58,648 nucleotides of DNA from a virus (lineage: Duplodnaviria; Caudoviricetes), in IMG/VR virus record IMGVR_UViG_3300020287_000001, positions 1-58,648 of that record; one strand, given 5' to 3'. Below the pieces are notes generated by a model that was not told where the DNA came from, did no database searches, and was given only the letters and a program-made list of their open reading frames with translations. Position 1 is the first letter of the stretch; every line of letters begins with the position of its first letter. Below are positions 8,341 through 48,442 of this stretch, piece after piece. A program made the position numbers and the translations under genes.

Positions 8341-9248
8341 TGGCACAAGAAGAAGTTATCCAAACCGTTAGAGAAACGCCTGAAATAGAAGCGTATCGAA
8401 TAGGACTACTAGAGTCTGCAAAGAAACTAGCAGATCAGGGCATTACCTTACCAACGCAACAGGTAGCGGGCCTCACGGGTCTTCAAGAAGCAGCTAGACG
8501 TCAGGCAGAAGCCGGTGTTGGCGCATTTATGCCATATGTTGAAGCAGCTGGACAAACACTAGGCGGGGCAGGGCAAACACTAGGCGGTGTTGAATCAGCG
8601 CTTAGAGCTGGTGCTGGACCTATAACAAGTGACATGATCCAAAGCTACATGAACCCTTATCAACAGGCAGTGGCTGATGAGATTAACAGAGCGTATGACA
8701 GGCAGTTAAGATCAAGTGCAGCTGGAGCTGTAGGGGCAGGAGCTTTTGGTGGCTCAAGAGGCGAGATAGCAGCATCAGAAATAGACCGGAACAGAGCAGC
8801 TGCGTTAGCACAGGCGCAGGCACAGAACTTCATGCAGGCACAACAAGCCGCAGAGAGAGATTTAGCTAGACAGACACAATTAGGACAAGGCATCGCGGCC
8901 CTTGCAGGACAGAAAGGTCAACTTGGTTTAAGACAAGCAGCTCTTGGAGAGACTGTACAGGGTCTTGGTCAAAGAGATGTAGAAGGTGCATTTAGAATAG
9001 GACAGTTGTTGCAAGCACAGGATCAGGCTACATTAGATGCACAAAGACAAAGCGATCTAGCACAAATGTATGAGCCTTATCAAAGACTTGGCTTTTTGTC
9101 AGACATATACAGTAAAACACCAACAACGCAACAGACTATAACACAGTCCACTTCACCTAATGTATCACCGTTTCAGCAATATTTAGGCCTCGGTATTGCA
9201 GGATTATCAGCGGCAGCAGGGGCGCAGAAAGCAGGGTTATTCGGATGA
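8340..9248 (+). CDS. Internal virion / DNA ejection protein (Gln/Ala/Gly-rich)
   Basis: YMNPY.Q.V...GAFGGSR motif; hydrophobic C-terminus. Confidence 0.7.
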   Translation: MAQEEVIQTVRETPEIEAYRIGLLESAKKLADQGITLPTQQVAGLTGLQEAARRQAEAGVGAFMPYVEAAGQTLGGAGQTLGGVESALRAGAGPITSDMIQSYMNPYQQAVADEINRAYDRQLRSSAAGAVGAGAFGGSRGEIAASEIDRNRAAALAQAQAQNFMQAQQAAERDLARQTQLGQGIAALAGQKGQLGLRQAALGETVQGLGQRDVEGAFRIGQLLQAQDQATLDAQRQSDLAQMYEPYQRLGFLSDIYSKTPTTQQTITQSTSPNVSPFQQYLGLGIAGLSAAAGAQKAGLFG

Positions 9249-12202: not shown

Positions 12203-15200
12203 TGGCTAATGTAGTAGACATATTTACTCCTGATGGTGTTGTTTCAGTCCCTGAAATAGAGTTTACTTCTGACCAAGTAAGTTTTTTTACAAAAGACAAA
12301 GGGCCCGAAGGAGCTACGTCTTTTCTTGCAGAGAATACAGCCAATGAGATAAGCCAACAGTTTCCAGATCTGTTTAATTATTCATCTCTAAAGGATGGCA
12401 CGGCTAAAATCTTTGATCTTGATCCAAATCTTGCAAGCAAACCAGCTAATGAGCGTGGATTAACTGACGAGGCAATATTAAAACAATTTACAAACTTAGA
12501 AGAAGTTGGCTTTTTTTCTGGATTTGGTCGTGAACTTTTAAAATCAGGCCCAAGTGGAGCTGCTTTTTTTGCAGGAGCTAAGGCCGGTGCCGCGGTAACA
12601 TCAGGTATACCGCCCGTAAATCCACTACTAGTTGGTGTAAAATTTGGTGTGCCTGTAGTAACAGGAACTCTTGCTGCTTTCGCTGGTTATGACGCCGGAG
12701 AGGATTTATCTAACTTTGTATTTGGGGACGAAGCTACTCCAATACCAAGTCACAGAGCAGCCTTTGAGGCTGGAAGAACCACGGCTGGCGGTTTGGCGTG
12801 GTTGCCAATGCCGTTTTTAATATCAAAAAACGTAAGCTTTGGAGCTTCGACATATCTCAAAAATTTAGATGAAATAATTAAAACAGGTGCTCCGCAAACA
12901 GGATTACAGAGAAGTAAGCCACCTTTATCGACTAAGTTAATAGGTGGTGTAGAAACTTTGTTGAATAAAACAGGTCAAGAGTTTAGAGACAAACCAAAAA
13001 GAATGGGTTTTTTAGAAGGTTTAAGTTTATCTGGTGCTACAGGTGGAGCTTATCTTGCAGAAAGCATAGCACCCGAAGAGGGTGTAGTAAGAATACCTCT
13101 TGAAATTGCAGGAGGTATTGCTCCTCAGCTCGCTTTTGGTAGCGTAATCAAAAACTTTGAAACAATTAAAGATGCAATAAAAAAACCTTTTTCTGCTGAA
13201 GGTCGTAAGGAAATAATTGAAGGAGCTGGTCTTGGAACAGAAAAAAGACGATTAGAAGCTGTAAGAAGAGTAAGAGAAATATTAGATGAACAAGGAGATG
13301 ATGTTGAGGCCTTGATCTTAGCTTTGGATGACGACTCTCTTACAAAACAACTAGGAGACCTTAACCTTACAGCGGGTCAGAAAACAGGTAATCCAACTCT
13401 TATGGCTATTGAAGCAAGTTTAGCTTCTGATTCACGAGGTTTGGGCAAGACAAGAAATGAAGCACACCTTAGAGCAAACAAAGCCATAAGAAACTTAATA
13501 AATGCACTAGTGGCTACTGGTGATAAAACAGCTATTCAAGAAGCAGCTAAATTACAAAAGCTTAGGTTTGACGGGTATTTAGCAGAACAATTAGCTCTTA
13601 AATCAGATAGAGTTTTAGATGCTTTTAAAGCTGTTACCAGAGGTGGACCGATAAATAATAAGAAGTTATCTGAAAAATTATTTGAGGTAACAGGATCTGC
13701 TCTAGCAGAAGCACGAAATCAAGAGAAAAGATTATATAGAGATATTGGTAATTTAGAGATTACATCTTTTGTAAATACAGAAGGTAATCCTATCGATACA
13801 CCAAACTTCATAAGATATTTTGAAAGAAATATGCCCACAACTAATGAGGCTTACGCAGAGTTTTTAAAAGATCTAGGCCCTTTAAATAATTTTGTAGCAA
13901 GAAAAAAAATAGAACTTGGTTTGGAAGACGTAACACCCGGACAAACTGCAAATCGTTTAGCTGAGTTTGATAAAATAATTGAACAAATTAAAGCAAGAGG
14001 TGTTCTACCACGACGTAAAGATAATTTAGTGCTAAATGTAGTTGACCAAGCAAGAAAAGATTTAGACTTTGGAGAGCTCGATGAACTCGATTCTGGTCAG
14101 TTAACCACTCTGTTATCAACTATAAGAAACAATCAACCTATACAAGCTACAGATGTATTTAGAGGCGGCACAACTAGACAAGCTTCAGCTGAAAGACAAA
14201 GAGCTTTTAATCAAAGAAAAGCTAACTTTAAAGATGCTCTTGAATTAGTAAACACTCTTAGAAAAAGAAAATTAGAGGAAGCAAATATTCCTGTATCTGA
14301 AGCAACCGATGAATTAAAACCACTAACTGTGAATGAAATTAGAGATATGCGTTCATTGGCTCTTGCAAAGGGAAGAGCATTAACAGCTTCTGGAGAGGCA
14401 AATAAAGCTAGGATTGCATATGGTTTTGCTGAGGCTTTGTTAGACGATCTAAATAGTGCTCCTGAAGGTGTAAACGCAGCTTTCGATACTGCAAGAGCTT
14501 ACTCAAAATCTTTAAATGACACATATACTCGTGCTTTTGCTGGTAACATATTATCCAAAGTTAAAACCGGTGCAGAGAGAATACCACCAGAAATACTTCA
14601 TACAAAACTATTTGTAGGTGGTGCTGATCCAAGTTATTTAAGGATTACACAAATTGAAGAAATAGGTAACTTTGCTAAAAATCAGGGACTGGAAGGGGCT
14701 GATGAAACAATAGCCACGATCCACGGTACACTGGATCAACTAATTAGAAATGCTAGAGCAGAAGCTTTTGATCCTGAAACTGGAACAGTTAATGTTGCTA
14801 AACTAAAAGACTGGAATAGAAAAAATGCAGATCTTTTAGACAACTTTCCCGGTTTAAAAGCAGACTTAGAAGAAGCAGAGAAAGCAAATGTGCTATTAAA
14901 TCAATGGGTTGATAAAGACAAAAGAATACAAAAAGTAATTAACTCGCAAAAAACTTACAGAAACCTAACTGGTTATGAAAACCCTACGAAAGCAGTGGTA
15001 GAAGCTATTAATTCTAAGTTTCCGACTAAGTCTCTAACCTCTATGATAAGAGTAGCTAAAGACAATCCAGAAGCTTTAGCTGGCTTAAAAAGTTCAATGC
15101 TGGATGCAGCTCTTGTAAAAGCTGGTGGTACTAGTGAAACATTTAGTCCCAGAGCTTTGTATGAAACATTATTTTCAAAGATACCAAATGCAATAGACCG

Positions 15201-16863
15201 TAATACAACTTTGATGAATATCATGTTAAAAAATGATGTAATTAAAGAGGGTGAAGCAAATAACTTTAAAAAGTTAATAACTGAAATGGTTAAACTAGAA
15301 GCAGCTGAGAGCGCTGGTAGACTTGGAGAAGTCATAGAGGGCACAGGCGCAATCATGGACTTTTATTTAAGAATTACAGGTTCTGCCATAGGTACAAAAT
15401 TACAAGGCGCTGTTTTTGGTGGGCAAGGACCGGGAGCATTGGTAGCGGCTGGTGCTGGTTCAAAAGCACTTCGTAATTTATTCAACTCTATACCTGAAAG
15501 CATGAAGACAGATGTAATGACTGAGGTTATGGAAAACCCACAGTTATTAGCTACTTTACTTAGAAAAACAAAAGATCAGCAACAAAAACAAAACATCGCA
15601 AGTAAGTTAAAAAAGATATTAGCAAAGGCAGGTTACATCACTATAGGTAAGCCTGTAAAAGAAAGTTTTAGATCAGCTCCTTTTGCTATAAGAGAGATTG
15701 AAGAAGAAGAGATAGACATGACAGACCCAACATTTGAAGGTGTTGGTCAACAGAGTTCGGTAGATTTGCCCAGACAGGGGTTTCCCACCACCCAAAAGGC
15801 AATAGTACCAACCAGCGGAGTGAACAACCGCCTCGCGGCTAATGTGGGCACAGCCCCACAGGCCGCGCCTAACCCTAATCAAAGGCAACAGTTTGCATCT
15901 TTGTTCCCTAATGATCCAATATCTGGTTTGATAAATGCACAACAGCCTGTAAGGTTGATGGCTCAAGGTGGAGCTGCTTATGACATGGGACTAGAAACAG
16001 ATCGCGCGGCTCAAGAAACAATACAGAGTGCCTTAGAAGGTGGGTCTGATGACAATCAAACACAAACGCAGTCTTTTAATTTTCGTAACGTACCCGCTAC
16101 AATTAGCAGAGGTATAGCAAGCCTCATGGACAATATAAAGTATACTCCAGATGTAACAGGCATACAAAGTTTTGTAAGAGACACACCAGTTGGTATGACC
16201 GCACCTGTAAGTTTACAAACAAATATAGGGGGCTTTCCCGTAAGTTTTACCCCCACTTTTCAAAAAGGTGGGCTTGGGGTACTTGCTGAAACAACTTTTG
16301 AAAATGGCGGTGCAGTTGATTACAGTGATTTTGAAGATGCTTTTGGGCCGGCAAGTGAATTTGGTTCAGATATTTCAGAAGAGACAAAAGCAGAAAACAG
16401 GTACGATGATCCTGATGAATCTATAGGTGATATGTATTCTTTAAGTCCGGAACAATTTACGGCTATGAGAGGAGCTACCAGCACAAATCCTTTTCCTAAC
16501 TCTTTACCATCAAGAATAGCTAGATTTTTTGGTACAGATGTTGATTACACTCAACAATATGGTGGAGGAGATGCTGGTTTACAAAGGGTAGCTGAAATAA
16601 ATCAACTTAGACAAGCACAATCTTTATACCCAGAAGATTTTACGAGGAAGGATTTTTATGAAGGACAACCAACAATAAGAGGTCCCGCTGTTGATGTATC
16701 TAATCCAATCACTCAAGGTATTAGAATGTTAGCTCCATACGGTTCTGGTCAAATTATACCGGGTGATTTTTTACCACAAGAAATTGCAAAAGAGAGAGGT
16801 CTAACCGCTCAACAACAAAAGTTGATAGACCTTGGGATGTTTAACAGATTATTTGGAAGATGA
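12202..16863 (+). CDS. Largest internal virion / ejection protein (1553 aa)
   Basis: Size, helical composition, last gene of the ejection cluster. Confidence 0.65.
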   Translation: MANVVDIFTPDGVVSVPEIEFTSDQVSFFTKDKGPEGATSFLAENTANEISQQFPDLFNYSSLKDGTAKIFDLDPNLASKPANERGLTDEAILKQFTNLEEVGFFSGFGRELLKSGPSGAAFFAGAKAGAAVTSGIPPVNPLLVGVKFGVPVVTGTLAAFAGYDAGEDLSNFVFGDEATPIPSHRAAFEAGRTTAGGLAWLPMPFLISKNVSFGASTYLKNLDEIIKTGAPQTGLQRSKPPLSTKLIGGVETLLNKTGQEFRDKPKRMGFLEGLSLSGATGGAYLAESIAPEEGVVRIPLEIAGGIAPQLAFGSVIKNFETIKDAIKKPFSAEGRKEIIEGAGLGTEKRRLEAVRRVREILDEQGDDVEALILALDDDSLTKQLGDLNLTAGQKTGNPTLMAIEASLASDSRGLGKTRNEAHLRANKAIRNLINALVATGDKTAIQEAAKLQKLRFDGYLAEQLALKSDRVLDAFKAVTRGGPINNKKLSEKLFEVTGSALAEARNQEKRLYRDIGNLEITSFVNTEGNPIDTPNFIRYFERNMPTTNEAYAEFLKDLGPLNNFVARKKIELGLEDVTPGQTANRLAEFDKIIEQIKARGVLPRRKDNLVLNVVDQARKDLDFGELDELDSGQLTTLLSTIRNNQPIQATDVFRGGTTRQASAERQRAFNQRKANFKDALELVNTLRKRKLEEANIPVSEATDELKPLTVNEIRDMRSLALAKGRALTASGEANKARIAYGFAEALLDDLNSAPEGVNAAFDTARAYSKSLNDTYTRAFAGNILSKVKTGAERIPPEILHTKLFVGGADPSYLRITQIEEIGNFAKNQGLEGADETIATIHGTLDQLIRNARAEAFDPETGTVNVAKLKDWNRKNADLLDNFPGLKADLEEAEKANVLLNQWVDKDKRIQKVINSQKTYRNLTGYENPTKAVVEAINSKFPTKSLTSMIRVAKDNPEALAGLKSSMLDAALVKAGGTSETFSPRALYETLFSKIPNAIDRNTTLMNIMLKNDVIKEGEANNFKKLITEMVKLEAAESAGRLGEVIEGTGAIMDFYLRITGSAIGTKLQGAVFGGQGPGALVAAGAGSKALRNLFNSIPESMKTDVMTEVMENPQLLATLLRKTKDQQQKQNIASKLKKILAKAGYITIGKPVKESFRSAPFAIREIEEEEIDMTDPTFEGVGQQSSVDLPRQGFPTTQKAIVPTSGVNNRLAANVGTAPQAAPNPNQRQQFASLFPNDPISGLINAQQPVRLMAQGGAAYDMGLETDRAAQETIQSALEGGSDDNQTQTQSFNFRNVPATISRGIASLMDNIKYTPDVTGIQSFVRDTPVGMTAPVSLQTNIGGFPVSFTPTFQKGGLGVLAETTFENGGAVDYSDFEDAFGPASEFGSDISEETKAENRYDDPDESIGDMYSLSPEQFTAMRGATSTNPFPNSLPSRIARFFGTDVDYTQQYGGGDAGLQRVAEINQLRQAQSLYPEDFTRKDFYEGQPTIRGPAVDVSNPITQGIRMLAPYGSGQIIPGDFLPQEIAKERGLTAQQQKLIDLGMFNRLFGR

Positions 16864-16864
16864 T

Positions 16865-17308
16865 ATGCAGCTTAGTAAAAACTTTTCATTACTTGAACTA
16901 ACCAAAAGCCAGACAGCAGAGCGTAAAGGTATAGATAATACACCTAACGCAGATCACATATATAACCTTACTGCACTAGCTGAAAATATCTTGCAGCCAG
17001 TGCGAGATGAATGGGGCTCTTTTATCGTATCAAGCGGCTACAGGTCCATAGCACTGTGCGAAGCCATAGGATCAAAAGCATCAAGCCAACATGCAAACGG
17101 CGAAGCGGCTGACTTTGAGGTAGCTGGTGTAGACAACCACAGACTAGCCTCATGGATAGAAGCAAACCTAAACTTCGATCAGCTTATCTTAGAATGTTAT
17201 ACAGGTGGCAACACAGGCTGGATCCACTGTTCTTATGTACCTCATGGACGTAAAGAAACATTGACCTATGACAGACAAAACGGCTACAGAAAAGGTTTAT
17301 TATCTTAA
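16865..17308 (+). CDS. Endolysin, peptidase M15A family
   Basis: LSKNFSL.E...SSGYR...SQH..GEAAD...WIH.S zinc peptidase motifs; ATG 16865 preferred over the track start. Confidence 0.9.
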   Translation: MQLSKNFSLLELTKSQTAERKGIDNTPNADHIYNLTALAENILQPVRDEWGSFIVSSGYRSIALCEAIGSKASSQHANGEAADFEVAGVDNHRLASWIEANLNFDQLILECYTGGNTGWIHCSYVPHGRKETLTYDRQNGYRKGLLS

Positions 17309-18742
17309 CCAGTTCTTAGTCTCCTCGTTCAACACTTGGTCAGCTAGGTTTATCTTATTACGCAGAGCTTCTACTATCTTCTCGTCTATAGTATCTGGTG
17401 CAATCAAATCGACGTAAGTCACTGATTTCTTTTGACCTATTCTATGCGCCCTGTCTTCGGACTGTAACCGGCTCTCCAAGTCATAGCTGTTACTATAATA
17501 TATAACAGTGCTTGCCTGATTAAGTGTAATACCATAGCCACCAGTTTTTGGATGACCAACAAAAAACCGCAACGGGCTGTCTGGATCTTCAAAGCGCTTT
17601 ACAATATCTTGTCTGTCTTCTTGCTTAGTCGCACCATAATACACGGCTACCGAATCAGCACCATAAACTGCCGTAAGATTTTTTATTATCTCTTGTATGC
17701 CATACACATAGTTACACCATATGATAGCCTTGCCTGAGTTCTCTTCAACGACGTTCATCAGCTCAGTAATTCTGTTGTTATCAAGCACTTGCAGACGGCC
17801 TTCGTCGCTTTCAAGATAGCCACAACATATCTGCTGTAGGCGCATCAGTTGTGTAAGCACACTAGCTGTTGTTGCAAGCTCGCCACGCTCCAGCTGTGCT
17901 AATGCGAATCGCCGCATTTGCTCATAAATCGTAGTCTGCTCACTAGTCAAAGCGACGTTTCTTTTAACATAAATTTTATCAGGTAGATCCAGACAATCTT
18001 TCTTTAGTGTCCTAGCTGAAAACTGTGTCAATATACCGTTCAGCTCATCTAATCGTTTGTAGCCTACTATATCATTAAAGCTACGACTACCAAAGGTTTT
18101 GCGCTGTACAACTGCATATCTGTTCTGAAAAGCAAAGTAACTAGCTTGACCAAGAGCCATAGGATCTAAAAAACCGCACTGAGAAAACAAATCCATAGGC
18201 GACTTGGTTACAGGAGAACCTGTTAATATACGCTTGTATTTAGCATACTTGCTTACATCTATTATGTTCTTGGTTCTGTTAGCTTTTCTGTTCTTGATAG
18301 TCGTGCTTTCATCTATAATCATTATGTTGTCTTCATTCTTACGCAGAAAGTAGTAAGCAGCTTTCTTACCACGCTCTGAGCTAAACGCTTCAATGTTCAT
18401 AATCAGAAACTTAACACCGGCCATCATCTCGAACACAACCTTTTGCATATCGTCCTGAAACTTTTTAGCCTTGCTTGGTTGCCAACGCACCACGAACCTT
18501 TCTATCTCGTCCGGTAAGTGATTCGGTATCTCTTGTTTTACCCAGTTATCATATACACCCTTGGGTGCAATTATCAGTGCAGAATCTATTTCGCCCTCTA
18601 ATTTAAGCTTGCCAATCGTATCAATAATAACTTTTGATTTACCTAAGCCCATCTCCATAAACAAGGCGTAGTATGGTCTTTTCCAACTGTCATCAATGAT
18701 TTCTTCCTGATGCTTAAATGGTTTTGTCTTATATATATACAT
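17300..18742 (-). CDS. SNF2-family (SF2) helicase
   Basis: MGLGKS Walker A, IIDES, LTGSP, QSEDRAHRIGQ motifs. Confidence 0.93.
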   Translation of the reverse strand: MYIYKTKPFKHQEEIIDDSWKRPYYALFMEMGLGKSKVIIDTIGKLKLEGEIDSALIIAPKGVYDNWVKQEIPNHLPDEIERFVVRWQPSKAKKFQDDMQKVVFEMMAGVKFLIMNIEAFSSERGKKAAYYFLRKNEDNIMIIDESTTIKNRKANRTKNIIDVSKYAKYKRILTGSPVTKSPMDLFSQCGFLDPMALGQASYFAFQNRYAVVQRKTFGSRSFNDIVGYKRLDELNGILTQFSARTLKKDCLDLPDKIYVKRNVALTSEQTTIYEQMRRFALAQLERGELATTASVLTQLMRLQQICCGYLESDEGRLQVLDNNRITELMNVVEENSGKAIIWCNYVYGIQEIIKNLTAVYGADSVAVYYGATKQEDRQDIVKRFEDPDSPLRFFVGHPKTGGYGITLNQASTVIYYSNSYDLESRLQSEDRAHRIGQKKSVTYVDLIAPDTIDEKIVEALRNKINLADQVLNEETKNWLR

Positions 18743-26912: not shown

Positions 26913-27674
26913 ATGGACCCGTTGACAATTACCGCAGCTATGAGCGTGGCTAATAGCGCTTTTAATGCAATCAAGCAAGGATTTGCCGCAGCTAAAGATA
27001 TTGAATCAATGGCTTCAGACGTCGGACGTTGGATGGGAGCTGTGTCTGATATAGATAATGCGGAGAAACAAGCCAAAAATCCTCCCCTATTTGGTAAGTT
27101 ATTCAAGGCCGGTTCTATCGAAGAGGCAGCTCTCGCTGCTTACGCAGCAAAGAAGAAGTTGGAAGAACAGCGCTACGAGCTAAAAATATTTCTTAACATG
27201 ACTTACGGGCCACAAGCTTATGATGATTTGCTTAAAATGGAAGGGCAGATTAGAAAACAACGGCAAGAAACTATTTACAAACAACAACAGCTCAGACGTC
27301 AAATAGGCGAAGCTGTAACTTGGTTGATAGTTGTATCAATTATCGGTGGTTTTGCTGTGCTGGTGGCTAGTATCTGGGTAAAAAAAGCAAAAGCTGATGG
27401 CTACACCTTCACGCCTCGTGCTTATACTAAACAACAATTAGAAAATCAGGGTAAGATTGATAAGAAAAAGTACACGACTTGCAGACTTAAAAAGAGAATC
27501 ACATCAAAGTATACAGACAAAAGAGCTTGTATCTATCAAGGCGGCAATAAAACATTTACAATGTTAATTGAAAGCTGGTGCCCGAAAAAGTACAAATGTG
27601 TCTATGATCCAAACGGCACGGAGCCTGATATAGATAAAGTTATGGAGAGTTTGAGAAGTATAGGTAAAAAATAA
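26913..27674 (+). CDS. Membrane-anchored conserved marine phage protein
   Basis: MDP.T...A..AF..IK.G N-terminus, one TM helix, Cys-containing C-terminal domain. Confidence 0.75.
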   Translation: MDPLTITAAMSVANSAFNAIKQGFAAAKDIESMASDVGRWMGAVSDIDNAEKQAKNPPLFGKLFKAGSIEEAALAAYAAKKKLEEQRYELKIFLNMTYGPQAYDDLLKMEGQIRKQRQETIYKQQQLRRQIGEAVTWLIVVSIIGGFAVLVASIWVKKAKADGYTFTPRAYTKQQLENQGKIDKKKYTTCRLKKRITSKYTDKRACIYQGGNKTFTMLIESWCPKKYKCVYDPNGTEPDIDKVMESLRSIGKK

Positions 27675-27711
27675 GTTTGACAGCGTATATAAATATATGC
27701 GATAACAAATC

Positions 27712-27806
27712 TAAGAGTAAGTACCCTTTTCATTTGCTCTTATCCTATATAAAATGTGATAAAGCTCCGAGTTTCGTGTCCTCCATGTTTCCTCGGAGCT
27801 TTTTTT
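27712..27806 (+). ncRNA. Candidate trans-acting antisense small RNA (hairpin - 18-nt linker - terminator hairpin)
   Basis: TTGACA at 27677; stems 27712-22/27732-42 and 27761-71/27792-802; U-tail; linker complementary to RBS leaders. Confidence 0.55.
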
Positions 27807-27807
27807 A

Positions 27808-27837
27808 TTGACAAACGTATAAGATAAATCCTATAAC
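27808..27837 (+). promoter_or_regulatory. Promoter with operator in spacer
   Basis: TTGACA-18-TATAAC; TATAAGATAAATCCTATA at 27818-27835. Confidence 0.75.
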
Positions 27838-27842
27838 TGTAT

Positions 27843-27924
27843 GTGTGGAGTGTTTAGCTCGTTCAGGACTGTGGTAGATCTCAGCATTTATCTTAGTGAC
27901 GTAACCTCAAGGCGCTCCACACCA
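27843..27924 (+). other. Structured leader RNA closed by a 13-bp stem, ending ACCA
   Basis: GTGTGGAGTGTTT pairs with AGGCGCTCCACAC. Confidence 0.45.
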
Positions 27925-27944
27925 AACTTATATAGGAGAAAACT

Positions 27945-28187
27945 ATGAAAAAAGAAAAAGAAGATTGGGAAATAAAGCGAGATAAAGAGATCGCAGAAAA
28001 ACAAAAAGCTATGGGAGCTATGACTGTCGGACAGCTGCAAGCGGTTCACGATGCTTACAACGCTATAAACACCGCTATGATTAGCATAAGAGATATTAAT
28101 GACCTTATGTTATCTGATATCAAAGACCTAGATGAAGCTTGTTATAAGTTATTTGATGAATTTAACATGAGGGGTAGTGATGGCTAG
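27945..28187 (+). CDS. Hypothetical protein
   Basis: TATATAGGAG leader. Confidence 0.75.
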   Translation: MKKEKEDWEIKRDKEIAEKQKAMGAMTVGQLQAVHDAYNAINTAMISIRDINDLMLSDIKDLDEACYKLFDEFNMRGSDG

Positions 28188-30744: not shown

Positions 30745-30762
30745 TATAAGATAAATCCTATA
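30745..30762 (+). promoter_or_regulatory. Operator copy
   Basis: TATAAGATAAATCCTATA, identical to 27818-27835. Confidence 0.75.
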
Positions 30763-30786
30763 ACACATATTTATAGGAGAAATGTT

Positions 30787-31056
30787 ATGAATAAAATTGA
30801 AGACAAACATTGTTATACGCCTGTCAAAGAAGAAGGACAAAGAGGTATATATAGAGTTGCAAAAGTAACTTGGAACCAAGGAGGCTATCAGCCGTTGGGC
30901 AAGGCCGATCCAAATGATCCACATGAGATGGATAAGTTTGTAGGATCTTGGGGACATTGCAGACAAGTTTGCGATAACTTTAATAAGCACATCAATGTCA
31001 GCCTTGAGCAAGAGAACCAAATTGTTTGGAGATCTATGGAGGTGCAGAATGGCTGA
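30787..31056 (+). CDS. Hypothetical accessory protein
   Basis: TTATAGGAG leader. Confidence 0.75.
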   Translation: MNKIEDKHCYTPVKEEGQRGIYRVAKVTWNQGGYQPLGKADPNDPHEMDKFVGSWGHCRQVCDNFNKHINVSLEQENQIVWRSMEVQNG

Positions 31057-32310: not shown

Positions 32311-32328
32311 TATGGGATAAATCACATA
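32311..32328 (+). promoter_or_regulatory. Operator copy
   Basis: TATGGGATAAATCACATA. Confidence 0.7.
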
Positions 32329-32342
32329 TATAGGAGAAATTA

Positions 32343-32543
32343 ATGTTTCTAAATAAAGACCAACTTAAACACCTAGATAAAAACGGGTGGATACCTATGA
32401 ACACCAAAGACGGAACGGCTTGGTTCGGGGGTAAATCACATTATAGACTTGCAGACTATATCGAAGATCCTGAGAAAGACGATAGATCACTTGAAGATAT
32501 AGACTTTTTAGTTATTGCATATTCAAAAAAGGAGGAGGACTAG
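32343..32543 (+). CDS. Hypothetical accessory protein
   Basis: TATATAGGAG leader. Confidence 0.75.
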   Translation: MFLNKDQLKHLDKNGWIPMNTKDGTAWFGGKSHYRLADYIEDPEKDDRSLEDIDFLVIAYSKKEED

Positions 32544-33911: not shown

Positions 33912-33939
33912 TTTACATATAAGATAAATCGTATACTAT
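33912..33939 (+). promoter_or_regulatory. Promoter with operator in spacer
   Basis: TTTACA-16-TACTAT; TATAAGATAAATCGTATA at 33918-33935. Confidence 0.7.
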
Positions 33940-33941
33940 TT

Positions 33942-33969
33942 AAGCGGGGCATCACACCCCGCTTTTTTT
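33942..33969 (+). terminator. GC-rich hairpin plus T7
   Basis: AAGCGGGG-CATCACA-CCCCGCTT region followed by T run. Confidence 0.7.
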
Positions 33970-33995
33970 AATTGCATTTTATATAGGAGAAAAAT

Positions 33996-35150
33996 ATGCG
34001 ACATTTAGAAAACGAAAATAGAACTTTAGAAGATATGCTTCATGTTATTAAAGAACAGAATGACATGAAACAAGACTACATAGCTCCAACTAATCAGCTT
34101 CAGTTTAGAACCCTTAAAAACGAAGGAGAAACTGCACATAGTCAGATTGTTATGGAAGCGAACCAAGGCGAGCCGACTAAAATACTCAATGTTAATCAAC
34201 ATTGTTTTGACCAAATAGCTCAAAAGGCTGAGATAGCGACGCCAACGGCTAGACGTTTACAGCAGAACTATCCTAGAGAAATGGATAATTTGATTAATGC
34301 TATTTGGCAAAAAGAAAACTCCAAACGTATGATTAGAACTTTTGAAAATTCAAATCATACAAACCCGTTTAATTATGACAATCATACGGGTACGGCTAGA
34401 GCTTTTTTATCTGATAAGTTTAAGACTTTTGATAATTCTGATTTATTGGAATCAGCTTTACCGACACTTGGAGAGTCGGACGCCAGTTGGAAAATTGTTA
34501 ATTACGCCAACACTGATAAAAAACTTTACATACGTCTAAAATCTGAAGTTATACAATCTGATGCAGGATTAAATGATTTAATGGCACATGGAATTGGGAT
34601 TAGTAATTCTGAAACTGGATCAGGATCAGTAGCTGTATTTGGCATAGCTTGGACGTTAGCTTGTTTAAATGGTATGCAAACCGAAAACGTAACCCGTAAG
34701 GCACATATTACTTCTGCGAGGGACGGCGACACTTGGAATGTATTAACCGACGAAACTAAACAAGCCGACAACCATAGTTTAAAACTTCAGCTCAGGGACA
34801 TTGTTAGCTCATATGCTAGTAGAGATGCTTTTGACGAAAACATTGAAAAAATGAAAAGAGCCAAGGAAGACGTAGTTAACGTACCTATGAATGAATCAGT
34901 CGAAAATTTAGGAAAAGTTTTAACTTTATCTAAAAAAGAAACTAGCAATGTACTAGAGGGTTTACTTCAGACTATAGGACAATCAGGGTATGAACAAAAC
35001 CAAAAGATAAACAGGGCAACACTTGTTAACGCTTGTACAGCTGTAGGTAATACTTCCGATCCTGACAATGTTGATTTTTGGCAACGACTAGGAGGAAAAG
35101 TTTTAAACTTAGGTAAAACCGACTGGAATAGGGTAGCAATGGCAAGTTAA
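33996..35150 (+). CDS. DUF932-family phage protein
   Basis: RAFLSD.F...DN, G..ISNSETG.GS......L.C.NG motifs. Confidence 0.8.
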   Translation: MRHLENENRTLEDMLHVIKEQNDMKQDYIAPTNQLQFRTLKNEGETAHSQIVMEANQGEPTKILNVNQHCFDQIAQKAEIATPTARRLQQNYPREMDNLINAIWQKENSKRMIRTFENSNHTNPFNYDNHTGTARAFLSDKFKTFDNSDLLESALPTLGESDASWKIVNYANTDKKLYIRLKSEVIQSDAGLNDLMAHGIGISNSETGSGSVAVFGIAWTLACLNGMQTENVTRKAHITSARDGDTWNVLTDETKQADNHSLKLQLRDIVSSYASRDAFDENIEKMKRAKEDVVNVPMNESVENLGKVLTLSKKETSNVLEGLLQTIGQSGYEQNQKINRATLVNACTAVGNTSDPDNVDFWQRLGGKVLNLGKTDWNRVAMAS

Positions 35151-35215: not shown

Positions 35216-35233
35216 TATGCATAATATCCCATA
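35216..35233 (+). promoter_or_regulatory. Operator copy (degenerate left half)
   Basis: TATGCATAATATCCCATA. Confidence 0.55.
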
Positions 35234-35259
35234 TCACAAACTATATAGGACAAAATAAA

Positions 35260-35649
35260 ATGATTAAACGACAATATAAAACATATGAAAAAAACCCTAC
35301 CCAATGGGAAATTAGTTTAGGTCTAATATTTGTAGACCTCGAAGAAGCTAAAAAAGTAGAAAATTTTGATCGTAAACAATATAAAGATTGGCTACATAAA
35401 TTAGTAGACCGAGATGAGATTGAAATTATTGAAATTTATAATCCTGACATTGATGAACATTTAACTCATTACTTAGAGCAAAATCCAATGGGTTATGGGT
35501 TATATTTAAAATCTGATAAAGGATTTACTCAGGACGGCTTTTATATGACTGAAGAGGACGCCCTCCATTATCAGGAAGAACGAGCTGAAGAAATGCCTGA
35601 CATTAAAACTTTTATATTTAAAACCCACGATAATGAAAACGAAAAATAA
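35260..35649 (+). CDS. Hypothetical accessory protein
   Basis: TATATAGGA leader. Confidence 0.75.
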   Translation: MIKRQYKTYEKNPTQWEISLGLIFVDLEEAKKVENFDRKQYKDWLHKLVDRDEIEIIEIYNPDIDEHLTHYLEQNPMGYGLYLKSDKGFTQDGFYMTEEDALHYQEERAEEMPDIKTFIFKTHDNENEK

Positions 35650-35703
35650 ACTTATCTGGAAAAGCTGACAAAAGACCCGTTAATTGACTTTAACGGGTTT
35701 TTT
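35642..35703 (+). repeat. Intergenic ~62-bp direct repeat copy 1 (stop codon + CAGCTG-type box + terminator/-35 hairpin)
   Basis: Near-identical to 36212-36273. Confidence 0.9.
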
Positions 35704-35747
35704 TTGTACTTATTAAAAATCACATTAACTTTATAGGAGAAAAACCA

Positions 35748-36077
35748 ATGGCATTACATTATAATTTAAAAGAATGTAATCTTGAAGGCGTCCCTGATAA
35801 CATTGTTACAGAAATGATTTATTGTACTATGGTTATTGAAATTGGACACTTTACCGAGAAAAATATTAAGGAAGTTTTTTATAGAATTTCTATAGCTGAA
35901 ATGTTTAATGGATCACCTTATCATTATGAACCAAAAACATTTAAATCAATACTTGCCGATATGGATTTATTGAAAAAGTTTATAGGATTAAAAACAAACG
36001 TAGGTAATACACCGATGAGAAAATGGTTTAGTAAAAAATTTAAACAACAGGAGCAATCAGACAATGCCAAAAGATAA
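35748..36077 (+). CDS. Hypothetical accessory protein
   Basis: TTATAGGAG leader; FIGL.TNV motif. Confidence 0.75.
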   Translation: MALHYNLKECNLEGVPDNIVTEMIYCTMVIEIGHFTEKNIKEVFYRISIAEMFNGSPYHYEPKTFKSILADMDLLKKFIGLKTNVGNTPMRKWFSKKFKQQEQSDNAKR

Positions 36078-36219
36078 ATTAAATTTAGATCAGCTTATGA
36101 ACAATTTAAATCAGGTAGGCTTAAACGTCATAAATTTTGATGAACATTTTCAAGAGCAGTTTTTTAACAAAAAGGAAAACGAAAAAAGCGAAGTTAAAAA
36201 AGATAATTTAAAAAAATAA
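36064..36219 (+). CDS. Small hypothetical protein (51 aa, not in ORF track)
   Basis: RBS AGGAG; stop lies in repeat copy 2. Confidence 0.6.
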   Translation: MPKDKLNLDQLMNNLNQVGLNVINFDEHFQEQFFNKKENEKSEVKKDNLKK

Positions 36220-36273
36220 ACTTATCTGGAAACAGCTGTAGAAAACCCGTTAATTGACTTTAACGGGTTTTTT
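36212..36273 (+). repeat. Intergenic ~62-bp direct repeat copy 2
   Basis: Near-identical to 35642-35703; TTGACT-16-TATTAT promoter. Confidence 0.9.
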
Positions 36274-36280
36274 ATTATTA

Positions 36281-36298
36281 TATGGGATAAATCACATT
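36281..36298 (+). promoter_or_regulatory. Operator copy
   Basis: TATGGGATAAATCACATT. Confidence 0.7.
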
Positions 36299-36321
36299 TT
36301 AACATTATAGGAGTTTTAAAA

Positions 36322-36642
36322 ATGTCTAGGCAATATCCAATATGGAATATAGTGACAGCTTGTATTTATAACAGCTGTAAAAGTTACGGCGTAAAAAATA
36401 CTGGAGAGGTAGAAGTTAGAGTCGGCACCAGTTCAAAAAATAGTCATTTATTTTTGAAACATTGCACAACTCACCGACAATTAGAAAACGGCGACAAAGA
36501 ATTTAGATTTTATATTGACGGGCAATTAATAAAAAGAGCTGTACTCCATAAAGGCGAATCACAACTTCAATTTTATGATGGAGCTTACCCGACCAATTCA
36601 AAATATTTGAATACGCCGATTGAAAACGGAGTCTTAAATTAA
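36322..36642 (+). CDS. Hypothetical accessory protein
   Basis: TTATAGGAG leader; YPIW..V.AC.Y...KSYG. Confidence 0.75.
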   Translation: MSRQYPIWNIVTACIYNSCKSYGVKNTGEVEVRVGTSSKNSHLFLKHCTTHRQLENGDKEFRFYIDGQLIKRAVLHKGESQLQFYDGAYPTNSKYLNTPIENGVLN

Positions 36643-38738: not shown

Positions 38739-40334
38739 ATGGCTGAAGAAGATTTTCAACCTAGCGATGCTTTACCGCCCACAGGGCAAGACAGAAGAGG
38801 TTTAGCTGGTATAGGTGCTTTTTTACCTATGACTGTTCCTAAAACTACTCCTTATGGTGAGGTAAGTTTAAGCGATATTGAAATGGGTATGCCTCCAGCA
38901 TTGAAGGATGCTTACAGTGGTATTATGAAGTTTGGTGCGCTTATGCGTGGAGAACTTACTCCTCAAGATATACAGCAGTTAGCTTTTGATACGTCCATGA
39001 ATGTAACGGGCGGAAGTTTGTTAGGATCTCAATTACTTCCAAAGGCAGTTCCAAAAGGTGCGCTAGGCATGGCAGCTTCAAAAATCCCTGACGACGCAGG
39101 TCTTGGATCAGGCAGCTTGTTTGCACCTGAAACTAAAAAGGGCAGACAGCTTCTTGTTTTATCTTGTAGCTCAACCAAATGTCCTGACGTTGGAGACATG
39201 AAAGCAGTTGACCGTTACTTGGGGCCCGTATTCCAAAGTTTAAAGAAACAGGGTGTGCCGGATAATGTAGACGTAGCTATTTTGTCAGCCAAGCATGGTT
39301 TGATAAGAGCCGATACTAAAATAAAAGATTACGATCAGTTGATGGATACCAACAGAGCAAGTGAATTTAAACAAGACGCAGGCCAAATGGACAGAATAAA
39401 GAACACCTTAGAGGGTTACGACAAGGTTGTGGTTCAGGGCGGAAAAAACTATAAGGACGTAATACGAGCTGCGTCAGGTGATGCGAATGTAACAGAGATA
39501 CCGGGTGGTAGGGGTATCGGAGATCAAAGAAAATCTGTTAAGTCAGCTCTGGCCTTTAGTAAAATAGATACACCTGTATATCATTTTACACGCAACACGG
39601 ATCCCGGTTTTAGTAAGTTTGACCCCGATAAATTATCTTTTTTTGATTTAGGTCCGCATGTTGGTTCCACACCAAGAGCAGCTCAGGATAGGTTTTTAGA
39701 TGAAATTTATGGTGTGGGCACGAGAAAAAAAATCAGAGATACAATGCAAGAGACAGGTCAAAGTAGAGATGAGGTCTTAGCAACACTTAAACTACCACAA
39801 GTAAGCGGGAACGTAGGGTACGATCCTATAACAAACAGACCTATAGCAAGAAAAACTTTAGGTGGCTCCCTGACTTTAAAAGCAGATTTAAGTAAACCTT
39901 TTTTGAACCCAAAAACAGGTAAACCGTTTACAGAGATGGAATTAAACGATTACCAAGCAGAGCAGTATAGTATTCATAAAGGGGAGTATATTTCCTCTAG
40001 TGACATCATGGGAGAGGACCCAAAAATAGACATACAGGATGTAAAAAAGTTTATGAGAGCTCATTCAAAAGGGTTAGCTGAACTTGGTTTTACGCACATA
40101 CCCTATGAAAATGCCGTAGAAGGTGTGGGTGATTTGAGCTACGTCATGCTTGTAAACAGACCAAAAGGCAGCACTAAGGTTTTGCAAAGCCCGTTTGCTA
40201 AGAAAGATCCTGATAAGTTTGACGATCCTGACTTTATGATGGAAGAAGGCGGCGTCGTTAGTATGAAAGACAAAGCAGTGAATATGACCAGAAAACCACA
40301 AGGTATTGAACCTTTTATTAAATTCGTGGTATAG
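38739..40334 (+). CDS. Multidomain protein: DUF6884-like plus ADP-ribosyltransferase (ART-PolyVal)-like domain
   Basis: LSCS..K...Y.G..F...ILSAKHGLI...YD; VYH.T....F..FD...G.H.G....A...YEN.VEG; C-terminal MEEGGVV. Confidence 0.55.
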   Translation: MAEEDFQPSDALPPTGQDRRGLAGIGAFLPMTVPKTTPYGEVSLSDIEMGMPPALKDAYSGIMKFGALMRGELTPQDIQQLAFDTSMNVTGGSLLGSQLLPKAVPKGALGMAASKIPDDAGLGSGSLFAPETKKGRQLLVLSCSSTKCPDVGDMKAVDRYLGPVFQSLKKQGVPDNVDVAILSAKHGLIRADTKIKDYDQLMDTNRASEFKQDAGQMDRIKNTLEGYDKVVVQGGKNYKDVIRAASGDANVTEIPGGRGIGDQRKSVKSALAFSKIDTPVYHFTRNTDPGFSKFDPDKLSFFDLGPHVGSTPRAAQDRFLDEIYGVGTRKKIRDTMQETGQSRDEVLATLKLPQVSGNVGYDPITNRPIARKTLGGSLTLKADLSKPFLNPKTGKPFTEMELNDYQAEQYSIHKGEYISSSDIMGEDPKIDIQDVKKFMRAHSKGLAELGFTHIPYENAVEGVGDLSYVMLVNRPKGSTKVLQSPFAKKDPDKFDDPDFMMEEGGVVSMKDKAVNMTRKPQGIEPFIKFVV

Positions 40335-47871: not shown

Positions 47872-47935
47872 ATGTATACTAAAACCACCTTGACAGAGAA
47901 TTAACTCTGACATTTGCCAAGACAAGGAGATTGAT

Positions 47936-48442
47936 ATGGCTAATACAACTTTTTCAGGTCCTATAAGATCAGAAAGCACCATTAAAACTATAAGTAAAAA
48001 CGCATCCACTGGAGCAATTACAGAAGTTATTACTATGGGTGATGCACCCGTTGCATTAGGTGATGAGGATAAAACTCTTGATAACGCAACACATAGCGGA
48101 AGAGTACTTGCAGTTCCAGCACTAGCGTCTAATAGAACAATAACATTGCCAGCGCCAGTTGCAGGAGCTTCTTTTAAATTTATCTACGCAGGTGCAGCGG
48201 AGGAAGCAGAAAATTTAATTATTGTTACTCCGGGCAACTCTAATTTTTTCTTAGGTAACGTACAGCATTTAGACACAAACGCAGACAATGTGAGTGTTTA
48301 TGCAAATGGAAGTAGTAATTCAAAATTAACCTTAACTGATTTTGGTAGCATGGAAATAAATATAGTAGGTAAAGATAGCACAAACTACTACATTTGGGGT
48401 AACGTAGTTTCTGAAGACGCTCCAGCTTTTGCTGACCAATAA
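47936..48442 (+). CDS. Virion structural protein (hypothetical)
   Basis: MANTTFSGP.RS N-terminus; RBS AAGGAG. Confidence 0.75.
   Translation: MANTTFSGPIRSESTIKTISKNASTGAITEVITMGDAPVALGDEDKTLDNATHSGRVLAVPALASNRTITLPAPVAGASFKFIYAGAAEEAENLIIVTPGNSNFFLGNVQHLDTNADNVSVYANGSSNSKLTLTDFGSMEINIVGKDSTNYYIWGNVVSEDAPAFADQ

What the first reader, a model, noticed from the sequence alone, without database searches (positions are those of the whole stretch)
27712..27806. Candidate phage sRNA that could silence a family of its own ribosome-binding sites
Seen: an ORF-free unit downstream of TTGACA (27677) folds into hairpin 1 (27712-22/27732-42, with G-U pairs that only work on the + strand), a single-stranded linker 27743-27760 (UCCUAUAUAAAAUGUGAU) and a terminator hairpin with U-tail. 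The linker pairs over all 18 nt (14 Watson-Crick, then 2 G-U, then 2 Watson-Crick) with the leader/Shine-Dalgarno of the DUF932 gene (33971-33988). It pairs partially with the shared TATAGGA leaders of the genes starting at 27945, 30787, 32343, 35260, 35748 and 36322 (also ATCACATTTT at 36291). Inference: a trans-acting RNA switch shutting off translation of the first gene of each accessory operon, which would explain why those leaders are conserved beyond a normal SD.
Basis: partly seen in the sequence, partly recalled or inferred. Interest (0 to 1): 0.9.

Follow-up and report, generated by a model that had tools for sequence, protein, structure and literature searches.

The report
Phage small RNA against own leaders
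An uncultured marine phage appears to encode a roughly 95-base regulatory RNA whose exposed middle is the mirror image of the shared start region of its swappable accessory-gene cassettes, so one RNA could dampen them all; no expression data exist yet.

Summary
Positions 27677-27806 hold a promoter, a 5' hairpin, an 18-nt open linker and a terminator (z -4.95). The linker pairs over 18 nt with 33971-33988.

Among 80 candidate + strand starts, the seven flagged leaders rank 1-7 for duplex energy. None of 200 shuffled linkers matches this. Five of the seven survive whole-molecule cofolding.

The minus-strand 43-codon ORF is broken in 6 of 9 variants. The unit is 96-100% identical in 8 of 9 comparisons, against 66-81% at third codon positions of the upstream gene. 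Every stem substitution is a G-U wobble that works only on the + strand.

A sister clade (DNA polymerase 86% identical) has a diverged unit at the same place. It keeps the promoter, hairpins and CUCC-loop terminator but has a changed linker, which again ranks that clade's own leaders on top.

Caveats:
- The leaders are PeSL-like promoter/terminator cassettes, which may be conserved as cassettes whether or not the RNA acts on them.
- Expression is untested.
- The "DUF932" label is below Pfam's threshold.

Best reading: a trans-acting anti-leader sRNA, confidence about 0.58. It is a new variant of a known kind.

The parts
27677..27682 (+). -35 hexamer TTGACA of the sRNA promoter, 2 nt after the stop codon of the upstream 253-aa gene
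   Evidence: Invariant in 15 of 15 distinct promoter+unit sequences, while the spacer varies at 5 of 15 sites. The same hexamer heads the sister-clade unit.
27698..27706 (+). TGcGATAAC, an extended -10-like element 18 nt after the -35; predicted start about 27712-27714 (inferred)
   Evidence: 1 of 9 sites varies. An identical TGCGATAAC is kept in the sister-clade unit, and there too the first hairpin begins 5 nt later.
27712..27742 (+). 5' hairpin: 11 pairs (27712-22 with 27732-42) and a 9-nt loop
   Evidence: 3 of 11 pairs change only between G-U and A-U or U-A. One terminal pair is unpaired in 1 of 7 variants. The loop carries 1-nt and 10-nt indels.
27743..27760 (+). Single-stranded linker (seed) UCCUAUAUAAAAUGUGAU, antisense to the cassette leaders
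   Evidence: Unpaired probability 0.73 on average, 0.89 or more for 27743-52. 3 of 18 sites vary: an A-run indel and the 3' end. Target ranking.
27761..27806 (+). Intrinsic terminator: stem 27761-71/27792-802, inner stem 27775-78/27784-87, loop with CCUCC, and a U7 tail at 27800-06
   Evidence: The T-run lies on the + strand side only. A CUCC-containing loop recurs in the sister-clade terminator although the stem sequence differs.
33971..33988 (+). Best predicted target: leader and SD of the 384-aa gene (33996-35150)
   Evidence: 18 pairs, duplex -20.4 kcal/mol. Cofold gain -14.1, rank 2 of 80. The leader is identical in 5 of 5 relatives whose gene DNA is 83-95% identical.
36291..36312 (+). 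Predicted target: leader and SD of gene 36322-36642
   Evidence: -17.9; cofold -12.5. Between relatives, changes fall mainly in the bulged AACAT part.
35233..35250 (+). Predicted target: leader and SD of gene 35260-35649
   Evidence: -16.0; cofold -14.0; 3 mismatches to the exact complement.
32321..32335 (+). Predicted target: leader and SD of gene 32343-32543
   Evidence: -15.6; cofold -12.2.
35719..35738 (+). Predicted target: leader and SD of gene 35748-36077
   Evidence: -15.1; cofold -14.9, rank 1 of 80.
27928..27937 (+). Weak predicted target: SD region of gene 27945-28187 (10 bp)
   Evidence: -12.8. Not among the best 12 of 80 once structure is counted.
30758..30778 (+). Weak predicted target: SD region of gene 30787-31056
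   Evidence: -12.8. Not among the best 12 of 80 once structure is counted.

Best explanation
The unit at 27677-27806 is a gene for a + strand small RNA of about 95 nt. It is transcribed by host RNA polymerase from its own sigma-70-type promoter and ended by its own intrinsic terminator. The RNA has three parts:
- a 5' hairpin that starts at or next to the first transcribed base;
- an A/U-rich single-stranded seed of about 18 nt;
- a terminator hairpin with a U tail.

The seed is antisense to the 5' untranslated leader (an ATCACA-type box through the TATAGGA Shine-Dalgarno region) that heads the phage's accessory-gene cassettes between 27.9 and 36.6 kb. By pairing there it would cover the ribosome-binding site, lower translation of the first gene of each cassette, and probably expose the mRNA to decay.

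Because the leader travels with the promoter/terminator cassette and not with the gene, whatever gene is shuffled in behind a cassette would fall under the same RNA.

Shown:
- the anatomy;
- conservation and strand-specific substitution pattern;
- loss of the ORFs;
- target ranking;
- a diverged homologue with the same logic in a sister clade.

Inferred:
- that the RNA is made, and where it starts;
- that the ATCACA box lies inside the mRNAs;
- repression rather than activation;
- timing and any chaperone.
For: 1. A complete transcription unit on the + strand.
- Consensus -35, TGnGATAAC, then the hairpin 5 nt later, and a strong terminator with its T-run on the + side.
- Across 15 distinct sequences, variable sites are: -35 0 of 6, spacer 5 of 15, -10 element 1 of 9. 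That is the pattern expected of a working promoter.
- No sigma-70-like site on the minus strand near 27760-27830 in the scan.

2. Not coding.
- The minus ORF keeps 43 codons in 3 of 9 variants. It is cut to 7 codons in 3 and to 26 in 1, and runs in another frame in 2.
- 1-nt indels at 27726 and 27751 also break the plus ORF.

3. Selection on the unit.
- It is 95.6-100% identical in 8 of 9 comparisons. The ninth is 89%, because of a 10-nt loop insertion.
- Third codon positions of the upstream gene are only 66-81% identical (8 comparisons).
- In 6 of 9 comparisons the downstream DNA aligns at only about 65-68%; the gene behind the first cassette belongs to four unrelated families across six genomes.

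4. An RNA-level, strand-specific pattern.
- W type: 26 pairs, 99.5% of cells paired, and 4 pairs vary, all by G-U wobble.
- S type: 31 pairs, 98% paired, 6 one-sided wobble changes and 2 double changes; 6 of 500 shuffles reach this.
- On the minus strand these would be A-C mismatches.

5. Targets.
- The seven leaders are the seven best peaks on the + strand.
- They rank 1-7 of 80 starts (next -10.4, median -6.4). 0 of 200 shuffles reach this, and 1 of 200 when UCCUAUA is held fixed.
- Five rank 1-5 in cofolding.
- All 41 cassette leaders in 6 genomes of the clade score -12.4 to -20.4.

6. Independent replicate.
- Sister clade G011/G014/G015: DNA polymerase 86% identical, TerL 92%.
- At the same place, just after the homologue of the 253-aa gene, it carries the same promoter, a remodelled 5' hairpin, an extra hairpin, the linker AACUAUAUAAUGUGUGAU, and a terminator with a different stem but again a CUCC loop.
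- Its linker again puts cassette leaders on top: the best 3 of 94 starts in G015 and the best 4 of 91 in G011. 0 of 200 shuffles reach the fourth-best value in either genome.
- Its minus strand has no SD-like GGA, read from the sequences.

7. Seed and leaders shift together.
- Cores were matched in register and differ at 2 positions.
- 12 of 13 S-clade leaders prefer the S core (mean +3.2 kcal/mol).
- The four strongest W-clade leader variants prefer the W core by 3.1.
- Mann-Whitney one-sided p = 0.003, but the leaders are not independent.

8. Co-occurrence.
- 9 of 9 genomes with a unit have 3-7 such leaders.
- 4 of 4 relatives without leaders have no unit.
Against: - No transcript evidence. 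The one RNA library that holds relatives is available only as contigs, which show neither ends nor strand.
- There is no both-sided covariation in the W type (0 of 26 pairs; shuffles equal the observed value). Structural support rests on a few wobble changes among close relatives.
- Some invariance is by construction. Part of the sequences were fetched with exact patterns lying in 27736-27750 or 27770-27795.
- High identity of the unit next to diverged flanks could also come from recent recombination of cassettes rather than purifying selection.
- The leaders may be conserved as promoter/terminator cassettes whether or not the RNA acts on them. One complete contig, G012, has 3 leaders and no unit; its expected place lies beyond the contig start.
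- Seed-leader covariation is not clean. 15 of 23 W-clade leaders do not prefer the W core. The leader that matches the W seed perfectly (20 of 20) sits in an S-clade genome.
- Two of the seven targets are weak.
- Whether ATCACA is transcribed depends on promoter assignments that I could not settle from sequence.
- The minus strand of the W unit also carries an ATG at the right distance from the SD. That fits an origin as an inverted leader copy and says nothing about present function.
Confidence: 0.58

Rival explanations
1. The + strand RNA is real, but its job is local or aimed elsewhere. It may be the terminator and 3'-end stabiliser (insulator) of the upstream replication operon, or an sRNA aimed at host mRNAs. 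On this reading the match to the phage's own leaders is left over from its origin as an inverted leader copy.
For: - The terminator also ends the upstream operon, and the unit starts 2 nt after that gene's stop.
- The minus strand of the unit resembles a whole leader, including an ATG at the right spacing. This suggests birth by inverted duplication.
- The CCUCC loop is a generic anti-SD that could bind many mRNAs.
- The host is unknown, so host targets cannot be ranked.
Against: - The seed stays intact: 15 of 18 sites never vary.
- In the sister clade the seed is altered, yet it still matches that clade's leaders best. The SD and ATG relic has gone there.
- A mere insulator needs neither its own promoter nor a single-stranded seed.
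Confidence: 0.2
2. The signal is at the DNA level. The ATCACA...TATAGGA box is part of a mobile promoter/terminator cassette, or an operator for a phage DNA-binding protein. The unit simply holds one copy in inverted orientation, as a recombination product or a binding site. No RNA-RNA pairing is involved.
For: - The leaders have the anatomy of PeSL cassettes: -35 hexamers inside terminator loops, then -10, SD and ATG (PMC2839356, section 14).
- They sit in front of unrelated genes in different genomes.
- Cassette recombination could also homogenise the unit.
Against: - The complementarity covers only the part predicted to be transcribed (ATCACA to SD), not the -35/-10 parts.
- The terminator's T-run is on the + side, so this is not an inverted whole cassette.
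- The orientation is antisense in both clades (25 W-type loci, many of them the same contig fetched by different routes; 9 distinct S-type variants). It is sense in all 41 + 13 leaders.
- Stem substitutions follow RNA wobble rules on the + strand.
Confidence: 0.12
3. The locus encodes a small protein on the minus strand (27602-27733, 43 aa), for instance a type I toxin. The box serves as its ribosome-binding site and the + strand RNA as its antitoxin.
For: - The minus strand reads TATAGGA-N9-ATG followed by a partly hydrophobic 43-codon ORF.
Against: - The ORF is cut to 7 codons in 3 of 9 variants and to 26 in 1, and is frame-shifted in 2.
- It overlaps the end of the conserved 253-aa gene by 73 nt.
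- No Pfam family at E 0.01 or better.
- No minus-strand promoter in the scan.
- The sister-clade unit has no SD on that strand.
Confidence: 0.02

Closest known systems
Trans-encoded base-pairing sRNAs of phages and prophages, such as VpdS of vibriophage VP882 and PreS of lambda (review PMC12197685: abstract and section 2 read)
   Same: A short RNA with its own promoter and intrinsic terminator. It has a single-stranded seed and a U-tailed terminator preceded by an A/U-rich stretch. It is predicted to pair with the 5' regions of several mRNAs.
   Different: In the passages I read, PreS is described only with a host target (dnaN) and VpdS as acting on both phage and host mRNA levels; both bind Hfq. 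Here the ranked targets are a repeated leader family in the phage's own genome. There is no sequence or Rfam relationship. Host and chaperone are unknown, and nothing has been tested.
C4 antisense RNA of phage P1 (immI operon). Passages of PMC8198154 were read. The details of its repeated target sites covering the icd ribosome-binding site are recalled, not read here.
   Same: A phage RNA that acts in trans on the phage's own mRNA at a translation start region, through short complementary boxes present more than once.
   Different: C4 is made from the same operon it controls and serves lysogenic immunity. The RNA here has its own promoter and its targets head separate operons. No lysogeny genes were looked for. 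The phage has terminal repeats, and its nearest cultured relatives by DNA polymerase include pelagiphages HTVC023P and HTVC027P.
PeSL cassettes (promoter-early stem-loops) of T4-type phages (PMC2839356: abstract and section 14 read; PMC4122927: listing only)
   Same: This applies to the targets. They are intergenic composites of a stop codon, a stem-loop terminator overlapping a sigma-70-like promoter, an SD and a start codon. They are repeated in a region of small ORFan genes and flank genes that differ between close relatives.
   Different: This is not a T4-type phage. In what I read, PeSLs are not described as having a dedicated antisense RNA. Here the cassette leaders share a box that one RNA can read.
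T4 RegB endoribonuclease (PMC3014915: passages read)
   Same: It works alike in outcome. A phage-made factor inactivates a set of early mRNAs at their GGAG Shine-Dalgarno regions, which are followed by A-rich sequence. The leaders here read GGAGAAA.
   Different: RegB is a protein nuclease that recognises GGAG. Here recognition would be by base pairing over 10-18 nt. No RegB homologue was looked for.

Membership tests
Trans-encoded base-pairing sRNA (bacterial or phage type) | Own promoter and intrinsic terminator bounding a short unit | tested here: met
   TTGACA-18-GATAAC with TG, and a terminator with U7. Conservation follows a promoter-like pattern. This rests on sequence only.
Trans-encoded base-pairing sRNA (bacterial or phage type) | No conserved reading frame | tested here: met
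   The minus ORF is intact in 3 of 9 variants. 1-nt indels break the plus ORF.
Trans-encoded base-pairing sRNA (bacterial or phage type) | Accessible seed complementary to target mRNAs above background | tested here: met
   Unpaired probability 0.73. Targets rank 1-7 of 80, and 0 of 200 shuffles reach this. 5 of 7 survive cofolding.
Trans-encoded base-pairing sRNA (bacterial or phage type) | Detected as a discrete transcript | tested here: inconclusive
   Only contigs of one RNA library were available, from relatives and without ends or strand.
Trans-encoded base-pairing sRNA (bacterial or phage type) | Seed-dependent change in target expression; chaperone (Hfq or ProQ) binding | not testable with these tools
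   This needs reporters with compensatory mutations. The host is unknown.
Any curated Rfam family | Score at or above the family's gathering threshold | tested here: not met
   Whole window: only Mu-gpT-DE at 47888-47938. Around the unit the best is GibS, 23 bits against 115. Around the S-type unit the best is STnc50, 21 bits against 55.
P1 C4-type or P4 CI-type immunity RNA | Processed from the leader of the operon it controls | tested here: not met
   It has its own promoter right after the stop codon of the upstream gene. Its targets head 5-7 separate cassettes 0.2-8.6 kb downstream.
P1 C4-type or P4 CI-type immunity RNA | Repeated complementary boxes that overlap a ribosome-binding site | tested here: met
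   (prediction only).
PeSL-type regulatory cassette (for the targets) | Sigma-70-like promoter combined with a stem-loop terminator, then SD and ATG, repeated in intergenic regions | tested here: met
   TTGACT or TTGACA lies inside the terminator loops at 32269-97, 35670-703 and 36238-75. Compared with PMC2839356, section 14.
PeSL-type regulatory cassette (for the targets) | Flanks genes that are swapped between close relatives | tested here: met
   The same leader heads up to 4 unrelated gene families across 6 genomes.
PeSL-type regulatory cassette (for the targets) | Promoter and terminator activity shown; T4-type phage | not testable with these tools
By DNA polymerase, the phage's nearest cultured relatives are marine phages including HTVC023P and HTVC027P, at 48-55% identity.
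Type I toxin-antitoxin | Conserved small hydrophobic ORF opposite or overlapping the RNA | tested here: not met

The most novel reading that the evidence does not exclude
A 'plug-and-play' post-transcriptional regulon. The phage's mobile promoter/terminator cassettes carry a common leader that serves as an address tag for one master anti-leader sRNA. Any accessory gene that recombination drops behind a cassette is then at once under the same RNA control. Seed and tags drift together between clades (W and S types). An extension follows from one observation: the W seed matches one S-clade leader perfectly, 20 of 20. The RNA could therefore also silence cassette genes of co-infecting sister phages.
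Probability: 0.3. Interest if true: 0.78.

Novelty: new variant of a known kind. Interest (0 to 1): 0.62.

Why it matters
Regulatory RNAs of lytic marine phages are almost unexplored. Two full-text searches turned up no description of one in this phage group, though these were not exhaustive.

If the reading holds, three things follow:
- It shows how a phage keeps a fast-shuffling pool of strongly transcribed ORFan genes under common control, by tagging the cassette rather than the gene.
- It links two known ideas, modular PeSL-like cassettes and base-pairing sRNAs.
- It offers two natural seed/leader variants (W and S) that can be tested directly in a reporter system by swapping two seed bases.

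Tried and rejected
- **Expression.** One run search and one read-laying run gave only contigs. The single RNA library holds diverged relatives, and its contigs show no ends or strand. No verdict.
- **Minus-strand 43-aa gene or type I toxin.** Rejected. The plus-strand 44-codon TTG ORF is rejected because of 1-nt indels.
- **TATAGGAG as a T7-like phage-polymerase promoter.** Dropped. The distance from ATCACA to TATAGGA varies from 2 to 9 nt. No polymerase family appeared among the 10 proteins scanned, although the 985-aa and 1553-aa proteins had no family at all. This reading is not excluded.
- **Rfam.** Nothing.
- **Cultured phages.** Neither the W unit nor the S unit has a match.
- **Unit in more distant relatives.** G001-G005 gave only chance-level 14-19-nt matches. 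A k-mer scan for analogous anti-leader windows there was uninformative.
- **A third unit type.** A regex over all loci held found none.
- **Nucleotide-level covariation between linker variants and leaders.** The contigs with the one-A-shorter linker (L009 type) or the L019 linker are too short to hold the best target. The target leader is invariant in the 5 relatives that hold it.
- **Technical failures.** One search found nothing because I set the wrong spacing; one search repeated it with a variable gap.
- **Exact transcription starts of the cassettes** could not be settled from sequence. Competing -10 candidates are GATAAA, TATTAT and TATAAC.

Full report
**What the window is.** The window is a complete 58,648-bp viral genome with direct terminal repeats, from a marine source. 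Almost every gene of 150 aa or more is on the + strand. It encodes a family A DNA polymerase, a primase, helicases, a terminase and a portal protein. By DNA polymerase, its nearest cultured relatives are Phage DSL-LC04 (55% identity) and Pelagibacter phages HTVC023P and HTVC027P (48-51%). The host is unknown.

**The observation.**
- The upstream 253-aa gene ends at 27674.
- TTGACA follows at 27677, and TGcGATAAC lies 15 nt after the hexamer (18 nt to GATAAC).
- Five nt later comes an 11-pair hairpin (27712-22/27732-42).
- Then comes an 18-nt A/U-rich linker (27743-60).
- A terminator hairpin with seven U follows, at 27761-27806.
- The next promoter, TTGACA at 27808, comes directly after.

The fold is far better than shuffles (z -4.95, 0 of 200). 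The linker is predicted to be open, with mean unpaired probability 0.73 and 0.89 or more for 27743-52. The 18-nt pairing with 33971-88 (14 Watson-Crick, 2 G-U, 2 Watson-Crick) is exact.

**Is it coding?** No.
- In 9 distinct versions of the unit, the minus ORF keeps 43 codons in 3. It stops after 7 codons in 3 and after 26 in 1, and changes frame in 2.
- The cause is length variation in the T-run of the hairpin loop, plus a 10-nt loop insertion.
- The same 1-nt indels rule out the plus-strand TTG ORF.

**Is it conserved as an RNA?**
- A search with the upstream protein found 266 relatives. In 11 of the 80 loci kept, the unit lies directly downstream. Pattern scans added more.
- In 8 of 9 comparisons the unit is 95.6-100% identical. 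The ninth is 89%, because of the loop insertion. Third codon positions of the upstream gene are 66-81% identical.
- In 6 of 9 comparisons the downstream DNA is unrelated.
- Over 15 distinct sequences, variable sites are distributed as follows:

| Segment | Variable sites |
|---|---|
| -35 | 0 of 6 |
| Promoter spacer | 5 of 15 |
| -10 element | 1 of 9 |
| Hairpin 5' arm | 3 of 11 |
| Hairpin loop | 4 of 9, plus indels |
| Hairpin 3' arm | 1 of 11 |
| Linker | 3 of 18 |
| Terminator | 1 of 43 |

- All 4 stem pairs that vary do so through G-U wobble, which works only on the + strand. There is no double compensatory change, so this is weak structural evidence.
- Caveats: part of the set was fetched with exact patterns inside the unit. 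Cassette recombination could mimic purifying selection.

**Targets.**
- A duplex scan of the whole + strand puts the seven flagged leaders in places 1-7. Values run from -20.4 to -12.8, and the next peak is -12.1.
- Among 80 candidate starts they rank 1-7 (next -10.4, median -6.4). 0 of 200 shuffled linkers reach this.
- Holding the anti-SD heptamer fixed and shuffling the rest, 1 of 200 reaches it. The match therefore goes beyond a generic anti-SD.
- With whole-molecule cofolding, five leaders (35748, 33996, 35260, 36322, 32343) rank 1-5, with gains of -12.2 to -14.9. Leaders 27945 and 30787 fall out of the best 12.
- In five further genomes of the clade, every cassette leader scores -12.4 or better, making 41 leaders in all.

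**What the targets are.**
- The leaders belong to composite cassettes. Each has a terminator stem-loop that often holds the -35 hexamer in its loop, then a -10, an ATCACA-type box, TATAGGAG and ATG.
- This is the anatomy described for PeSL cassettes of T4-type phages (PMC2839356, abstract and section 14).
- The genes behind them have no family with a known function (33996 matches only phrog_1362). The same leader heads unrelated genes in different genomes. For example, four gene families follow the first cassette.
- The conservation of the leaders 'beyond a normal SD' therefore has an explanation that does not need the sRNA.
- The gene at 33996 is not a confirmed DUF932 (14.9 bits against a cut-off of 23).

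**The sister clade.** This is the strongest new evidence.
- A scan for the leader motif led to genomes G011, G014 and G015. G011 and G015 are 100% complete. They are close in core genes: DNA polymerase 86%, TerL 92%, portal 84% identical. blastn with the W unit found nothing there.
- Yet at the same syntenic place, right after the homologue of the 253-aa gene, there is a unit with the same plan:
 - TTGACA-N14-TGCGATAAC;
 - a hairpin starting 5 nt later, with different arm sequences;
 - an extra hairpin;
 - the linker AACUAUAUAAUGUGUGAU;
 - a terminator with a different stem but again a CUCC-containing loop;
 - then the next cassette promoter.
- Nine distinct variants keep the structure: 31 pairs, 98% of cells paired, 6 wobble-only changes and 2 double changes (6 of 500 shuffles reach this).
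- Its seed again ranks that clade's leaders on top: the best 3 of 94 starts in G015 and the best 4 of 91 in G011. 0 of 200 shuffles reach the fourth-best value in either genome.
- On its minus strand there is no SD-like GGA. The 'inverted leader gene' reading cannot apply there.
- Cores were matched in register and differ at two bases. 12 of 13 S-clade leaders prefer the S core. The four strongest W-clade leader variants prefer the W core (p = 0.003, leaders not independent).
- The pattern is not clean. 15 of 23 W-clade leaders do not prefer the W core. One S-clade leader is a perfect 20-nt complement of the W seed.

**Co-occurrence.**
- 9 of 9 genomes with a unit hold 3-7 such leaders.
- 4 of 4 more distant relatives (72-92% complete) have neither.
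- G012 holds 3 leaders and no unit. The expected place lies beyond the start of that contig.

**Mechanism.**
- I commit to a trans-acting anti-leader sRNA that covers the 5' leader and SD of the first gene of each cassette, lowering its translation.
- Its promoter is of the same kind as a cassette promoter. The best S-clade target shares TTGACA-N14-TGCGAYAAC. The RNA is therefore probably made together with its targets.
- It would then either damp strongly transcribed and possibly harmful ORFan genes, or outlast them and close the early phase. In outcome that resembles T4 RegB (PMC3014915, passages).
- Direction, timing and chaperone use are inferred.

**Comparison with known systems.**
- No Rfam family fits.
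- It works like known phage sRNAs (VpdS, PreS; PMC12197685, section 2). By my recollection it also works like P1 C4 RNA, which targets repeated boxes at a ribosome-binding site of its own operon (PMC8198154, passages).
- It differs in having its own promoter, and in addressing a family of mobile cassette leaders in separate operons.

**Verdict.** No expression or functional data exist. Confidence in the anti-leader sRNA reading is about 0.58. It is a new variant of a known kind, with interest 0.62.

Noticed in passing
window 27808-27944: Directly after the unit comes a conserved promoter (TTGACA-18-TATAAC) and a structured 5' leader of about 85 nt, a long stem GUGUGGAGUG...CGCUCCACAC. In one variant (L010) a G-C pair becomes C-G and an A-U pair becomes G-U. 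The leader is kept in front of four unrelated first genes in six genomes. No Rfam match. It may be a cis-regulatory RNA in its own right.
   Followed up: partly
window 30757-30779: TCCTATAA-N7-TTATAGGA is an inverted repeat. Its left arm is the -10 region of the cassette promoter and its right arm is the SD of gene 30787. Transcripts reading through from upstream could hide the SD, while transcripts started at this promoter would not. TCCTATA also occurs in the promoter at 27829.
   Followed up: no
window 33912-33966: A promoter-like site (TTTACA-16-TACTAT) is followed at once by a terminator hairpin (33942-33964, with ATCACA in its loop), before the best target leader. A transcript from this promoter would begin at or inside the hairpin. 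This may be attenuation, or the promoter may be nested so that its transcripts escape the terminator.
   Followed up: no
window about 35640-35705 and 36208-36275: A direct repeat of about 65 nt includes near-identical terminator hairpins (ACCCGTTAATTGACTTTAACGGGT) with the -35 hexamer TTGACT in the loop. These are repeated cassettes of the kind said to drive modular shuffling.
   Followed up: partly
window 27779-27784; L212 about 12345-12352: The terminator loop carries CCUCC, identical to the core of the 16S anti-SD as I recall it. A CUCC-containing loop is kept in the sister-clade terminator, whose stem sequence is different. It could be a second, generic SD-binding site of the RNA.
   Followed up: partly
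G015 (locus L207), leader ending at the start codon of a 68-aa gene, contig position about 38843-38869: A sister-clade leader is a perfect 20-nt complement of the W-type seed (duplex -23.5), better than any leader in the window's own genome. That genome's own sRNA is S-type (-16.0 on the same leader). Cross-clade silencing during co-infection is conceivable.
   Followed up: partly
window 47888-47938: The only Rfam hit at gathering level is Mu-gpT-DE RNA (RF03012, 52 bits against 49). It lies just downstream of the 301-aa gene 46911-47816.
   Followed up: no
window 9245-16863: Two very large adjacent proteins (985 and 1553 aa) have no PHROG family at E 0.001 or better.
   Followed up: no
window 17300-18742: This helicase gene (phrog_62) is the only large gene on the minus strand in an otherwise one-directional genome.
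   Followed up: no
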